Assembly: GCA_965215765.1 (NCBI GenBank)
Contig: OZ244118.1
Span: 1,101,007 to 1,165,006, forward strand
Length of the DNA: 64,000 nucleotides
Direction of reading: 5' to 3'
Source of the DNA: an uncultured candidatus Porisulfidus sp.
Lineage (GTDB): Bacteria > Pseudomonadota > Gammaproteobacteria > Poriferisulfidales > Oxydemutatoraceae
Shown here: one piece after another, positions 4,936-8,330 of the stretch
How the letters are laid out: every line of letters starts with the position of its first letter
Numbering within the stretch: the stretch's first letter is position 1
The notes under the pieces: model-generated
Databases searched by the model: none
What the model was told of the DNA's origin: nothing
Seen by the model: the letters and a program-made list of their open reading frames with translations, nothing else
Made by a program: the position numbers and the translations under genes

Positions 4936-7486
4936 AGCTACCTGGGGTTTTCAGCTTTTTGCGTAGTTCGTAAATGGTGGCGAGCGCTTGGCGAGGAGAC
5001 AGTTCGTTGGGGTCGAGCCCTTCCAGAAATTTCAACACCGGGTGGGGGTCAAGTATGGGTGTCGGCCGTTTCGGAGCGGGGGTTGGGATGCACCGTGAGG
5101 CTTCCAGCTCTTCCAGCTTCTCAAGTGCCTGTTTCAGTGCAGCTTCCGGAAGCCCTGCGAGTCGTGCGACCTGAATGCCGTGGCTACGGCTGGTTCCCCC
5201 GGTTTTTATTTTGTGCAAAAACACGATTCTTCCAGCACTCTCTACTGCGTCCATGTGAACATTTTTCACTTGTGGGTATTTTTCGCAGAGCGTTGTCAAT
5301 TCGAAGTAGTGAGTCGCAAATAATGTCAATGAGCGGTTCCGGCTCGCCAGTTGTGCCGCACACGCCCAGGCAAGGCTGAGCCCGTCAAAGGTGCTTGTTC
5401 CTCTGCCGATTTCGTCCATCAGAACCAGGCTGTCCGCTCCGGCGTTATTCAAAATATTGGCGGATTCTGTCATTTCCACCATGAAGGTGGATCGCCCGGA
5501 AGCAATGTCGTCTGCTGCACCGACCCTCGTGTAGATGCAGTCGAGGGGGCCGATGGTCGCTGACGTGGCCGGCACCCAGGCGCCGATGTATGCCAGCAAG
5601 GCAATTTGCGCTGCCTGGCGCATGTAGGTGGACTTTCCACCCATATTCGGCCCCGTGATGACGAGCATGCGTTGCTCCTCGTTCAGAACCAGGTCATTTT
5701 CTACAAAAATGTCGTCCTGGCTGAGCTCTACGACAGGGTGTCGTCCGCCTTTGATGTGAATACCCCGTGAGCGGGTCAGTGTTGGCTGGCAGTAGCCTCG
5801 TTCTTCTGCACACTTGGCAAGGGTGCTCATGACATCCGTCTCGGCCAGAGCGACGGATGTTGCCTGCAGGTGACCGATGAAGGGGCTGAAAGAAAGCAGG
5901 ATTTCCTGAAACAATTTTTTCTCTCTGGCGAGTGCCTGCTCGCGGGCAGCAAGCACACGGCCTTCCAGCGATTTCAATTCCGCAATGGAGTAGCGCTCCG
6001 AGTGCTTCAGCGTCTGCATTCTTCGGTAGTCTTCCGGGGCTTTCTCGGCAACTGCGCGTGGCATTTCTATGTAATAGCCGTGTACTCGGTTGTAAGCGAC
6101 GCGCAAATTCTTGACTCCGGTTCTACGCTGTTCCCGACTTTCAATTTCCATCAAATGCTTGAAAACGTTTTTATGCAGCCCGCGGAAATCATCCAACTCC
6201 GGATCGTATTTGGGGCGGATGACACCCCCATCACGAATGGTGGCGGGGGGAGCGTCCACGATTGCCTGCGCAAGACGTTGTGCGAGCTCCGGTTCGGGGT
6301 GCAGTTTGGCGTCAAGGTCTTTGGCCAGCGGGCTTGTCAGGAGTCCCAGCATAGTTTTCAAAGTTGGCACTTGTTCCAAAGTTTCTCGAATGCCATTCAG
6401 GTCTCGTGGTTTTGCTGTCCCCAGAACCACGCGCGCGAGCATGCGTTCCAGGTCATTGCAGTGATTCAGTGTGGTGCGCAAGTTGTGCAGGATTTCCTTA
6501 TGTACGAGTTCGCCGATCAGCTCCTGGCGTTTTTGCAGGATTTCCTGTTGCCGCAAAGGGCTGGCGAACCAGCGTCTCAAACAGCGTGCCCCCATACTCG
6601 TAACGGTGTGGTCGTGAATGCCGACGAGCGTTCGCCTATGGTCACCAGAAGCCGATTTTTCTATTTCCAGGCAGCGGCGGCTCGTGGCACTGAGGTGTAC
6701 AAAATCTTTGTCGTTTTCCACGATGATGCTACGCACATGTGGCAGCTCTGATTTTCTGGTGTCCAGCACGTATTGCAAAAGTGCCCCGGCAGCTGCAACA
6801 GCCATGTCTTTTTCAACGCAACCAAAGCCTTCCAGACTCAGCACCCCAAGCTGTCGGCATAACAGCTTGTGTGCATTTCTGACCAGGAACACGGTTGCTG
6901 GCAAGCATTGCGCCTCTCGCTTTTCCAGGTTGAAAGTATGGGTTTCGCTGACCAGAAGTTCTGTCGGCTGCAGGCGTTCTATTTCATCGTCCAGCGTGGC
7001 ACGGTGGGTCGTCTGACGGATGGTCAGGCGACCAGAACTGAGCTCAAGCGTCGCGATGCCAAATACGGGTCGTTCCGTCTTTCCGTCGCTATGTGCTGCC
7101 ATGACCAGATTGTCTCGTTGCTCGTCCAGCAGCATGTCTTCCACGACAGTGCCCGGAGTCAGCACACGTACCACTTTGCGTTCAACAGGGCCGCGGCTCT
7201 GCGCCGGATCGCCAACTTGATCGCAGATTGCCACCGTCTTTCCCATGCGAACCAGTTTGGCGAGATAGCCTTCCACTGCGTGTACGGGTACGCCAGCCAT
7301 GGGAACCTTCTTGTCGCCGTAACGGCCACGAGAAGTCAAAGTAATATCCAGGAGCTTCGCTGCTTTTTCGGCGTCGTGAAAAAACAGTTCGTAAAAATCC
7401 CCCATATGGTAGAAAAGCAAGGTGTCCGGATATTCAGCTTTGATACGCAGATACTGTTGCATAACAGGGGTGTGTACGCCGGTCAT
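4934..7486 (-). CDS. mutS: DNA mismatch repair protein MutS, 850 aa and apparently intact.
   Basis: [21 protein letters not shown]... is a canonical MutS N-terminus. The Walker A motif [13 protein letters not shown] and the C-terminal HTH region are present and the length is right. Confidence 0.95.
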
Positions 7487-8330
7487 GGGTGCGTCACCGC
7501 TGCCTGGATTGGTGCTTTTTGATCGTGGTTCACGGGCTTCACTGTTTGGGGCGTCGGGCGGAGGCTAATGCGGAGAATGCTTGATATTCATGAAGCGGTG
7601 CTATCACTGGCATCCGAGTTGCGCAGGCGCCGGTTGCGCTTGGTGAGTGCCGAGTCCTGTACGGGTGGCTGGATCGCAAAAACAGGGGTGTGTACGCCGG
7701 TCATGGGTGCGCCACCGCTGCCTGGATTGGTGCTTTTTGATCGTGTTTCACGGGTTTCACTGTTTGGGGCGGCGGGCGGAGGCTAATGCGGAGAATGCCT
7801 GATATTCATGAAGCGGTGTTATCACTGGCATCCGAGTTGCGCAGGCGCCGGTTGCGCTTGGTGAGTGCCAAGTCCTGTACGGGTGGCTGGATCGCAAAAA
7901 CAGGGGTGTGTACGCCGGTCGTGGGTGCGCCACCGCTGCCTGGATTGGTGCTTTTTGATCGTGTTTCACGGGTTTCACTGTTTGGGGCGTCGGGCGGAGG
8001 CTAATGCGGAGAATGTCTGATATTCATGAAGCGGTGTTATCACTGGCATCCGAGTTGCGCAGGCGCCGGTTGCGCTTGGTGAGTGCCGAGTCCTGTACGG
8101 GTGGCTGGATCGCAAAAACAGAGGTGTGTACGCCGGTCATGGGTGCGCCACCGCTGCCTGGATTGGTGCTTTTTGATCGTGTTTCACGGGTTTCACTGTT
8201 TGGGGCGTCGGGCGGAGGCTAATGCGGAGAATGTCTGATATTCATGAAGCGGTGTTATCACTGGCATCCGAGTTGCGCAGGCGCCGGTTGCGCTTGGTGA
8301 GTGCCGAGTCCTGTACGGGTGGCTGGATCG
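7470..8330 (+). repeat. 4 tandem copies (218 bp) of the divergent mutS/cinA-like promoter region. Each unit holds the first ~10 codons of mutS (on the minus strand), the intergenic spacer, and the first ~35 codons of the CinA-C gene.
   Basis: MRRM.DIHEAVLSLASELRRRRLRLVSAESCTGGWIAK... ORFs start at 7568, 7786, 8004 and 8222. Each unit also contains caggggtgtgtacgccggtcatgggtgcg, the reverse complement of the mutS start. Confidence 0.85.

What the first reader, a model, noticed from the sequence alone, without database searches (positions are those of the whole stretch)
7470..8330. Divergent mutS / CinA-C promoter region amplified four times
A 218-bp unit containing the first ~10 codons of mutS, the intergenic region and the first ~35 codons of the pncC-like gene is present in 4 tandem copies. 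Only the outer copies connect to full genes. Both genes thus sit behind 4 copies of the shared control region, and there are 3 extra in-frame 72-codon pseudo-starts of the CinA-C gene. This could alter expression of a mismatch-repair gene. That is notable given the striking tandem-duplication load of this locus.
Basis: seen in the sequence. Interest (0 to 1): 0.6.

Follow-up and report, generated by a model that had tools for sequence, protein, structure and literature searches.

The report
Tandem-duplicated mutS/cinA gene starts
A 218-base piece holding the starts of two back-to-back genes (mutS and cinA) really is present four times in a row, but it is one of very many tandem duplications at gene borders in this sulfur-oxidising bacterial lineage, and nothing found here suggests a special control device for DNA repair.

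Summary
Window 7463-8335 holds 4.0 head-to-tail copies of a 218-bp unit, 98% alike and without indels. Each unit is 8 codons of mutS, the 81-90-nt intergenic spacer and about 35-38 codons of a CinA-C/PncC-like gene. Only the outer copies join full genes.

The array is very unlikely to be an assembly artefact. A second contig from another assembly carries the same four copies with the same internal variants (1 mismatch in about 1 kb). Two sister species with complete 1.9-2.0 Mb circular genomes have the region in single copy. Their sequence polarises the variants into a stepwise history, c1,(c2,(c3,c4)).

The functional reading is not supported. MutS and CinA are intact and under purifying selection (dN/dS 0.13-0.22). 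No promoter-like site is detectable in the unit. The sister species with a single-copy mutS region carry the same tandem-repeat load.

That load is 12-14% of the DNA in six of the seven loci sampled, against 0.02% for arrays of period 100 bp or more in 160 other gammaproteobacterial mutS loci. Every array I placed against the genes in the first 25 kb straddles a gene border and leaves intact genes at its edges.

The best explanation is a near-neutral product of a lineage-wide tandem-duplication process of the Ehrlichia ruminantium type, filtered by selection.

The parts
7463..8335 (.). The tandem array: 4.0 copies of a 218-bp unit. Copy 1 is 7463-7680, copy 2 is 7681-7898, copy 3 is 7899-8116 and copy 4 is 8117-8334, plus 1 nt shared at the junction.
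   Evidence: TRF, alignment of the copies, exact extension, self-blast offsets of 218/436/654.
4934..7486 (-). Full-length mutS (850 aa), joined to copy 1. Its first 8 codons (7463-7486) are part of the repeated unit.
   Evidence: ORF. Pfam MutS_I to MutS_V all match. 94% and 85% identical to the MutS of the sister genomes. dN/dS 0.13-0.17.
8222..8722 (+). Full-length CinA-C / PncC-like gene, joined to copy 4. It is 166 aa from 8222, or 163 aa from the ATG at 8231 that is conserved in relatives. Its first 113 nt (104 nt from 8231) are part of the unit.
   Evidence: ORF. Pfam PF02464, E 1.8e-51. Called as 163 aa in all relatives. The relatives lack the first ATG.
7568..7786 (+). Pseudo-ORF 1 (72 codons; 69 from the conserved ATG at 7577). 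It has about 35-38 codons of CinA N-terminus, then reads through the antisense of the mutS start and the spacer. It ends at the TAA of a TAATG.
   Evidence: weak CinA hit, E 3.1e-5. Called as a 69-aa gene in L001/L164.
7786..8004 (+). Pseudo-ORF 2 (72 codons), same build, in copy 2/3.
8004..8222 (+). Pseudo-ORF 3 (72 codons), same build, in copy 3/4. Its stop overlaps the first ATG of the real cinA.
7588..7704 (-). Pseudo-mutS ORF of copy 2. It has the 8 mutS codons, then 30 codons of antisense cinA, then TGA (38 aa).
   Evidence: Translation.
7920..7922 (-). The copied mutS start codon of copy 3, changed from ATG to ACG (CGT on the + strand).
   Evidence: Alignment column 41, sequence.
8024..8140 (-). 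Pseudo-mutS ORF of copy 4 (38 aa).
   Evidence: Translation.
4254..4945 (.). Neighbouring array of the same kind: 231 bp x 3, covering the last 12 nt of mutS and the downstream spacer. It has 3 copies here and about 9.5-10.5 in the near-identical strain L001.
12487..13440 (.). Same kind: 318 bp x 3.000, covering the convergent 3' ends of folP (79 nt) and thiE (243 nt). Both outer genes are intact.
   Evidence: In L162 the two genes overlap by 4 nt in single copy.
18746..19579 (.). Same kind: 279 bp x 3, covering the 3' end of trpC (IGPS) and the spacer.
23068..24788 (.). Same kind: 152 bp x about 11, covering the 5' end of trpE and its upstream region.

Best explanation
The array is a fixed, probably near-neutral product of a lineage-wide process that makes 100-500-bp tandem duplications.

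Origin (inferred). An illegitimate, homology-poor event duplicated a 218-bp segment. One end lay in codon 8/9 of mutS and the other after about codon 35-38 of cinA. The junction shares only 1 nt.

Why it survived (shown for the anatomy, inferred for the selection). A tandem duplication whose two ends lie in different genes leaves one intact copy of each gene at the outer edges, so it was not selected against.

Expansion (shown from the variants). Once two 218-bp repeats existed, unequal recombination or slippage between them added copies stepwise, 1 to 2 to 3 to 4. Copy 1 keeps ancestral bases that copies 2-4 have lost together, and copies 3 and 4 share a further change.

Consequences (inferred, not tested). 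mutS keeps its native 194 nt of upstream sequence and cinA its native 105-114 nt. The three inner copies add whatever promoters and ribosome-binding sites the unit holds. These would give short junk peptides of 69-72 aa (+ strand) and 38 aa (- strand), longer leaders, and possibly head-on transcription between copies. The net effect on either gene is probably small.
For: 1. The structure is real and inherited. L001, a different contig and assembly (ERZ25071281), is 99.2% identical overall. It has the same four copies with all the copy-specific variants and 1 mismatch in about 1 kb.
2. The ancestral state is single copy. The 1.92-Mb and 2.00-Mb circular sister genomes (MutS 94% and 85% identical) have cinA 90 nt from mutS and no repeat.
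3. The history is stepwise. Polarising with L162 gives c1,(c2,(c3,c4)). Pairwise differences are 7/218 for c1 against c2 or c4, 4/218 for c2 against c3, and 2/218 for c3 against c4. Synonymous divergence from L162 is 0.16-0.19.
4. Both genes are functional. All domains are present and dN/dS is 0.13-0.22.
5. The process is lineage-wide. Arrays cover 13.4% of the window and 23.4%, 12.1%, 3.6%, 11.8%, 13.9% and 12.9% of six other loci from three species. In 1.78 Mb of 160 other gammaproteobacterial mutS loci the figure is 0.23%, or 0.02% for periods of 100 bp or more.
6. Every array I placed against the genes in the first 25 kb straddles a gene border and leaves intact outer genes. This holds for 5'/5' (this one), 3'/3' (folP/thiE), 3' ends (mutS, trpC) and a 5' end (trpE). 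By the gene calls, arrays in the sister genomes carry fragments of MutS_C, carA and DsrH.
7. Origins are independent and recurrent. The 231-bp arrays at the mutS 3' end in the window and in L163 have different contents, and L162 has none.
8. Copy number is labile. The 231-bp array has 3 copies in the window and about 10 in L001.
9. Junctions show 0-9 nt of microhomology or 1-3 nt of filler, no shared motif and no unusual hairpins.
10. The window has 154 direct repeat matches and no inverted ones.
Against: Neutrality is inferred, not measured. I have no expression data, and the promoters of mutS and cinA were not located. An effect on dosage therefore cannot be excluded.

The array has stayed at four copies in two strains while the neighbouring array changed from 3 to about 10. 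That could hint at constraint. However, this 5.4-kb segment is almost identical between the two strains (2 SNPs), so little time has passed.

I did not see reads, so the copy number rests on two assemblies.

The mechanism of the first event is inferred from junction sequence alone.
Confidence: 0.8

Rival explanations
1. Adaptive regulatory amplification. The four copies of the shared control region were selected because they change the output of mutS and/or cinA. This could work through additive promoters and translational coupling through the TAA/ATG overlaps, or through interference between head-on promoters. Copy number would then act as a tunable dial.
For: The unit contains the whole intergenic spacer and both translation starts. 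All four copies keep the Shine-Dalgarno-like GGAGG and the cinA ATGs. Each pseudo-ORF stops at or 8 nt before the next start. The array has four copies in two strains. Other arrays in the lineage also cover 5' ends: trpE about 11 copies, and carA fragments by the gene calls, at least 7 copies.
Against: No promoter-like site is detectable in the unit or in the relatives. Arrays are just as common on 3' ends, where no promoter logic applies. The sister species manage with one copy. The copies have diverged by 1-3%, and one copied start codon has decayed to ACG, as expected without constraint. The two strains are nearly identical here, so shared copy number says little.
Confidence: 0.12
2. The amplification impairs mutS expression, and the resulting mismatch-repair weakness causes the tandem-duplication load of the locus. 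This is the link the first reader suggested.
For: The only support is the co-occurrence of the array and a high repeat load in the window.
Against: The sister genomes with a single-copy mutS upstream region have comparable loads: 11.8%, 13.9% and 12.9% in three of their four loci. mutS is under purifying selection and is identical in two strains. The native proximal 194 nt upstream of mutS are retained. From established knowledge, mismatch-repair loss mainly destabilises short repeats and relaxes recombination between diverged sequences. It is not known to create 100-500-bp duplications with 0-9 nt junction homology.
Confidence: 0.03
3. Assembly artefact: the true copy number is one or two, and the assembler expanded it.
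For: I could not inspect reads. L001 has only 13x coverage.
Against: The four copies each carry their own substitutions, in a pattern that fits a tree. An independent contig from another assembly has the identical structure. Arrays of the same kind occur in 58x and 87x circular genomes. An 873-bp array is far shorter than the long reads that closed 2-Mb metagenome contigs would need (inference).
Confidence: 0.03

Closest known systems
[quoted passage not shown] 2005 PNAS; Frutos et al. 2006 J Bacteriol)
   Same: Many head-to-tail arrays with periods of roughly 100-300 bp and high identity lie in and around intergenic regions. Copy number differs between strains, and genome size changes by adding or removing units. 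[quoted passage not shown] That E. ruminantium arrays also duplicate gene ends is my recollection of Collins et al.; that paper was not available.
   Different: The organism here is a gammaproteobacterium with dsrEFH/dsrC sulfur-oxidation genes, trp/thi/fol biosynthesis and 53% GC. It is not an AT-rich obligate intracellular alphaproteobacterium. The local load is higher: 16.3% by the same raw-sum measure and 13.4% non-overlapping in the window. However, I sampled only about 195 kb of the lineage, not whole genomes. Periods here run up to about 490 bp.
Wolbachia intergenic VNTR-105 and VNTR-141 loci
   Same: These are intergenic arrays with periods above 100 bp. Units are 98-99% identical and copy number varies between close strains (PMC3287509).
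   Different: In Wolbachia there are a few such loci (1-1.6% of the genome), and the units carry internal hairpins. Here the arrays are everywhere, the units are plain copies of local gene ends, and the breakpoints show no unusual hairpin.
Spontaneous tandem duplication and amplification in bacteria (RecA-independent origin at short or no homology, RecA-dependent expansion and collapse; the Salmonella/E. coli lac and similar systems)
   Same: The logic has the same two steps: a rare, homology-poor first duplication, then easy copy-number change by recombination between the repeats. Junctions here show 0-9 nt of homology.
   Different: Classical amplifications are kilobases to hundreds of kilobases long, contain whole genes, are unstable and are lost without selection. 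Here the units are 100-500 bp, contain no whole gene, are fixed and have diverged by 1-3%.
TAACTGA direct-repeat sets in Beggiatoaceae intergenic regions (PMC4679880)
   Same: Abundant intergenic direct repeats in sulfur-oxidising Gammaproteobacteria.
   Different: Those are one shared 7-nt motif repeated at many loci. Here each array is a copy of its own local sequence, and no motif is shared between arrays.

Membership tests
Ehrlichia-ruminantium-type tandem-duplication arrays (large-period VNTRs at gene borders) | Head-to-tail copies with a period of about 100-500 bp and high identity | tested here: met
   218 bp x 4.0, 98% matches, no indels.
Ehrlichia-ruminantium-type tandem-duplication arrays (large-period VNTRs at gene borders) | The unit is a copy of local sequence (intergenic region plus gene ends), leaving truncated gene fragments inside and intact genes outside | tested here: met
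   The unit aligns base for base with the single-copy mutS-cinA region of L162 and L163. The fragments are 69-72 aa and 38 aa. The outer genes are full length.
Ehrlichia-ruminantium-type tandem-duplication arrays (large-period VNTRs at gene borders) | Many such arrays across the genome | tested here: met
   About 12-14% of six of the seven loci sampled from three species (3.6% in the seventh), against 0.02% (period 100 bp or more) in 160 other loci. Whole genomes were not available, so the genome-wide figure is extrapolated.
Ehrlichia-ruminantium-type tandem-duplication arrays (large-period VNTRs at gene borders) | Copy number differs between strains | tested here: inconclusive
   This array has 4 copies in both near-identical strains and 1 in both sister species. 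The neighbouring 231-bp array has 3 copies against about 10 in the same two strains. Variability is therefore shown for the class, not yet for this array.
Selected gene or promoter amplification | The amplified unit contains a complete gene or a demonstrable promoter whose dosage is selected | tested here: not met
   The unit holds no complete gene. No promoter-like site was found at standard or relaxed thresholds.
Selected gene or promoter amplification | Copies are near-identical and unstable (recent) | tested here: not met
   The copies differ at 2-7 of 218 positions in a tree-like pattern. The structure predates the split of the two strains.
Phase-variable contingency locus (simple sequence repeat) | A short unit (1-9 nt) in a promoter or ORF, whose copy number shifts spacing or frame of the real gene | tested here: not met
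   The unit is 218 bp. The real genes sit at the outer edges, so a change in copy number alters neither their frame nor their proximal upstream sequence.
Mobile element (MITE/REP/IS) or CRISPR array | Dispersed copies, terminal inverted repeats, or repeats separated by unique spacers | tested here: not met
   The self-blast shows the unit only at this locus. There are no inverted repeats in the window and no spacers. Rfam finds nothing.
MutS (mismatch repair) and CinA-C/PncC families, for the two flanking genes | A full complement of family domains | tested here: met
   MutS_I to MutS_V, E 1e-20 to 1e-80. CinA PF02464, E 1.8e-51, covering positions 7-154 of the 155-position profile.

The most novel reading that the evidence does not exclude
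This clade of sulfur-oxidising Gammaproteobacteria may have an unusually active, perhaps enzymatically distinct, way of making 100-500-bp tandem duplications, for example through loss or change of a replication or repair function. That process may have inflated one member's genome from about 2 Mb to about 3 Mb within a few per cent of sequence divergence. Arrays over gene starts, such as mutS/cinA (x4), trpE (x about 11) and carA (x7 or more), might then act as heritable, copy-number-tunable expression dials.
Probability: 0.12. Interest if true: 0.75.

Novelty: new member of a known kind. Interest (0 to 1): 0.45.

Why it matters
The mutS/cinA array by itself is probably a harmless scar. Its value is as a cleanly dated example of how a bacterial genome can grow by small tandem duplications that survive only when they straddle gene borders. 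The example has a single-copy ancestor, a four-step history and a second strain.

The lineage it sits in appears to carry at least as high a density of large-period tandem arrays as Ehrlichia ruminantium, the published record holder. It does so in a quite different kind of organism. The same syntenic interval measures 28, 38 and 52 kb in three relatives.

If that holds genome-wide, the clade would be a natural system for three studies: the rate and mechanism of homology-poor duplication, how genes are born from gene-end fragments, and whether repeated promoters and starts affect expression.

There is also a practical point. Gene callers annotate the fragments as genes (69-aa 'CinA' and 49-aa 'MutS_C' products), which inflates gene counts.

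Tried and rejected
1. Promoter and terminator scans of 7300-8500 found nothing. A relaxed scan (8 of 12 matches or more) of the unit and of the single-copy regions of L162 and L163 also found nothing. I could not say where the promoters are.
2. Rfam over the whole window gave no match, so there is no known RNA element in the unit.
3. I tested whether hairpins sit at the breakpoints. A small CTGTT-GCAT-AACAG hairpin lies at the left breakpoint, but 60-nt windows around four breakpoints fold no better than shuffles (z from -0.24 to +0.72). Rejected.
4. I looked for a shared motif or consistent microhomology at array junctions. Fourteen arrays were examined, and the cleaner ones give 0-9 nt of homology or 1-3 nt of filler, with no motif. 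My figure for the 1.33-kb duplication was unreliable because indels change its period.
5. Scans of GTDB species genomes and of JGI metagenomes with MutS found nothing closer than 54% and 52% identity, so they gave no useful relatives. The relatives came from the protein search plus contig look-up.
6. The look-up of the 166-aa CinA and of the 842-aa MutS (P0122, on a 2,997,607-bp contig) found no indexed gene. I therefore could not read the probable source genome beyond the window.
7. The original E. ruminantium papers (PMC545511, PMC1428390) are not held. I used secondary sources for the comparison.
8. Literature searches for a description of such arrays in sulfur-oxidising or other Gammaproteobacteria found none. 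This is absence in the searchable library only.
9. I considered and rejected a LexA box reading: the CTGT-N6-ACAG at the mutS start has the wrong spacing for CTGT-N8-ACAG.
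Full report
**1. The observation**

Tandem Repeats Finder reports an array at 7463-8335 with period 218, 4.0 copies, 98% matches and no indels. Exact extension gives 873 nt, which is 4 x 218 + 1. Aligning the four copies shows 10 variable columns out of 218.

On the minus strand, a full mutS (4934-7486, 850 aa, Pfam MutS_I to MutS_V) starts inside copy 1. On the plus strand, a full CinA-C/PncC-like gene runs out of copy 4 (8222-8722, PF02464, E 1.8e-51).

The unit holds three parts:
- 24 nt (8 codons, MTGVHTPV) of mutS;
- the intergenic spacer, 81 nt to the first ATG or 90 nt to the ATG that relatives share;
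- 113 nt of cinA (104 nt from the shared ATG).

Because 218 = 3 x 72 + 2, they are separate ORFs. Each ends at a TAA that overlaps the next first ATG (TAATG), or lies 8 nt before the conserved ATG. They are not in-frame extensions of cinA.

On the other strand, the copied mutS start opens a 38-codon ORF in copies 2 and 4. In copy 3 that start codon has become ACG.

**2. Artefact or real?**

The exact MutS protein is also encoded on ENA contig ERZ25071281:ctg49198_13x_l (157 kb). That contig is not the window. The two are 99.2% identical over 13.2 kb and differ in other arrays.

It nevertheless carries the same four-copy array, with every copy-specific variant and one mismatch in about 1 kb (window 8122 A against G). 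The copies therefore differ from each other in a reproducible way, which an assembler's expansion would not produce.

A MutS identical from Met9 onward lies on a 2,997,607-bp contig. This is probably the window's source, but I could not read it.

**3. The ancestral state and the history**

The protein search found two close relatives:
- MutS 94% identical, on a circular 1,918,571-bp contig (L162);
- MutS 85% identical, on a circular 2,000,500-bp contig (L163).

In both, cinA (163 aa) starts 90 nt from mutS and there is no repeat.

Using L162 as the outgroup:
- copy 1 keeps two ancestral bases that copies 2-4 have lost together;
- copy 1 has three changes of its own;
- copies 3 and 4 share one more change;
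- copies 2, 3 and 4 have two, one and one private changes.

This gives the tree c1,(c2,(c3,c4)). Pairwise differences are 7, 4 and 2 per 218 nt. Synonymous divergence from L162 is 0.16-0.19.

The array therefore arose after the split from the L162 species. It grew in at least three separate steps and was complete before the two strains diverged.

**4. The genes are in working order**

dN/dS is 0.13-0.17 for mutS and 0.18-0.22 for cinA against both relatives. The two strains differ by one synonymous site in mutS. mutS keeps 194 nt of native upstream sequence (copy 1), and cinA keeps 105-114 nt (copy 4).

I could not find the promoters. The consensus scan found none in 7300-8500. A relaxed scan of the unit and of the relatives' single-copy regions also found none. 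Rfam found no RNA element. 'Four copies of the promoter' is therefore plausible geometry but not a demonstrated fact.

**5. The context changes the meaning**

The window is full of the same kind of array:

| Array | Period x copies | What it covers |
|---|---|---|
| 1854-2588 | 182 x 4 | 3' end of a 549-aa gene |
| 4254-4945 | 231 x 3 | last 12 nt of mutS plus spacer |
| 7463-8335 | 218 x 4 | this array |
| 12487-13440 | 318 x 3.000 | convergent 3' ends of folP and thiE |
| 18746-19579 | 279 x 3 | 3' end of trpC |
| 23068-24788 | 152 x about 11 | 5' end of trpE |
| 46970-47824 | 272 x 3 | not placed against genes |
| 54530-55114 | 300 x 2 | not placed against genes |
| 63102-64000 | 211 x 4.3 or more | cut by the end of the window |

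Arrays cover 13.4% of the window, 12.7% counting only periods of 100 bp or more. Six further loci from the three species give these figures:

| Locus | Source | Coverage |
|---|---|---|
| L001 | near-identical strain | 23.4% |
| L165 | near-identical strain | 12.1% |
| L162 | 1.92-Mb genome | 3.6% |
| L166 | 1.92-Mb genome | 11.8% |
| L163 | 2.00-Mb genome | 13.9% |
| L167 | 2.00-Mb genome | 12.9% |

By the raw-sum measure used in PMC3287509 (Table 4), the window scores 16.3%. Ehrlichia ruminantium, called there the richest bacterium reported, scores 6.3%, and E. coli 0.38%.

The sister genomes show the same type of array on other genes. By their gene calls, the arrays carry fragments of MutS_C, carA and DsrH:
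- MutS_C fragments, 231 bp x 3, an event independent of the window's 231-bp array;
- carA fragments, 246 bp x 7 or more;
- DsrH fragments, 237 bp x 4.

Copy number is labile. The 231-bp array downstream of mutS has 3 units in the window and about 10 in L001.

**6. How it most likely works**

A tandem duplication destroys nothing except at its junction. A gene is damaged only if both ends of the duplicated segment lie inside it. With 100-500-bp segments and about 1-kb genes packed 0-100 nt apart, most random events would fall inside a gene and be removed. The survivors must straddle a gene border.

That is what all the arrays I placed against the genes in the first 25 kb do, whatever the orientation of the neighbours: 5'/5', 3'/3', or a single 5' or 3' end next to a spacer. 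The mutS/cinA array is the 5'/5' case.

Junctions carry 0-9 nt of homology, or 1-3 nt of filler (1 nt for this array and 0 for the 318-bp array). There is no shared motif and no unusual hairpin. This points to a homology-poor first event, such as template switching or other illegitimate joining. Expansion would then follow by unequal recombination or slippage between the long repeats. Both steps are inferred.

The window contains 154 direct repeat matches and no inverted ones. This fits local tandem duplication as the dominant source of repeats.

**7. The suggested link to mismatch repair**

The sister species have a single-copy mutS upstream region and comparable repeat loads in three of their four sampled loci. 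The load therefore cannot be a consequence of this array. mutS shows no sign of decay. The array looks like a symptom of the process, not its cause.

**8. What the inner copies might do (inference only)**

If the unit holds the promoters, copies 2-4 would add longer leaders and short junk peptides of 69-72 aa and 38 aa. Rightward (cinA-direction) and leftward (mutS-direction) transcription would meet head-on inside the array. Real antisense to either full gene is not produced, because both full genes point away from the array. The net effect could be a small rise or a small fall; I could not tell which.

**9. The organism**

The nearest MutS in GTDB species genomes is 54% identical. The loci carry dsrEFH/dsrC, a class I lysyl-tRNA synthetase closest to those of Nitrosococcus and Chromatiaceae (55%), and trp, thi and fol biosynthesis genes.

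It is therefore a sulfur-oxidising gammaproteobacterium without a named close relative. Its genome is about 2 Mb, and possibly 3 Mb in the window's strain. The interval from the mutS start to the LysRS end is 28.4 kb, 38.0 kb and 52.4 kb in the three genomes. I computed these from the record coordinates and from the window.

**10. Novelty**

The kind is known. [quoted passage not shown]

I found no description of it in Gammaproteobacteria or in a sulfur oxidiser. The local density exceeds the published record. I therefore file it as a new member of a known kind.

The specific mutS/cinA array is real but probably of little functional consequence. The lineage-wide phenomenon is the more interesting result.

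Noticed in passing
window 29300-59700: A tandem multigene family of at least nine paralogues, all on the + strand and with no Pfam hit (403-1702 aa). They share a block of about 1 kb at the 5' end plus upstream sequence, at 78-95% identity. GC is 45-47% against about 53% elsewhere. The same family occupies only about 12 kb next to LysRS in the 1.92-Mb sister genome (L166).
   Followed up: partly
window 1-64000: A self-comparison gives 154 direct repeat matches and not one inverted repeat.
   Followed up: partly
window 4254-4945; L001 12535-14977: The 231-bp array just downstream of mutS has 3 units in the window and about 9.5-10.5 in a strain that differs by only 2 SNPs across the adjacent 5.4 kb. 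This is live copy-number change.
   Followed up: yes
L163 12367-13066: The 2.00-Mb sister genome has its own 231-bp x 3 array at the mutS 3' end. It is made of the last 195 nt of mutS and was annotated as two 49-aa 'MutS_C' genes. It is an independent event that happens to have the same period as the window's array.
   Followed up: yes
window 16418-19082: A 1.33-kb tandem duplication of a whole class-I glutamine amidotransferase gene (two 247-aa copies, about 96% identical). It carries one unit of the 279-bp trpC-end array nested inside it, so duplications are layered. It is also present in L001/L164.
   Followed up: partly
window 23068-24788: About eleven copies of a 152-bp unit cover the 5' end of trpE and its upstream region. 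This is a larger example of a repeated gene start than the mutS/cinA one.
   Followed up: no
window 7486 to 59885, and the records behind L162/L166 and L163/L167: The same syntenic interval (mutS start to LysRS end) is 28.4 kb, 38.0 kb and 52.4 kb in the three genomes. A MutS identical to the window's lies on a 2,997,607-bp contig, while the sister genomes are 1.92 and 2.00 Mb. The genome may have grown by about half through duplication.
   Followed up: partly
window 4964-10404 versus 10404-17477: Against L001 there are 2 SNPs in 5.4 kb (mutS to orn) but about 45 SNPs in the next 7 kb. This suggests recent recombination or a local sweep covering the mutS-cinA segment.
   Followed up: no
window 7565-7570 and the same site in copies 2-4: A lineage-specific A-to-T change (TAAAG in L162, TAATG here) created a second in-frame ATG 9 nt upstream of the conserved cinA start. 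It overlaps a TAA stop and is present in all four copies.
   Followed up: partly
window 3403-3532; L001 17869-18626; L162 13187-13486: In-frame repeats of 42 bp and 96 bp lie inside large proteins of unknown function that are rich in Ser/Thr/Pro/Gln (549 aa in the window). Copy numbers differ between genomes.
   Followed up: no
L167 5281-6237 and 17469-18934; L163 20819-22562: Further gene-end arrays in the sister genome, identified from its gene calls: DsrH fragments (237 bp x 4), an HTH/transposase-associated unit (487 bp x 3) and carA fragments (246 bp x 7.1 or more, cut by the end of the locus).
   Followed up: partly
window 59885-61783; L165-L167: The lineage uses a class I lysyl-tRNA synthetase (PF01921) and has dsrEFH-dsrC next to gmk. 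This places it among sulfur-oxidising Gammaproteobacteria near Nitrosococcus and Chromatiaceae (55% identity at best).
   Followed up: partly
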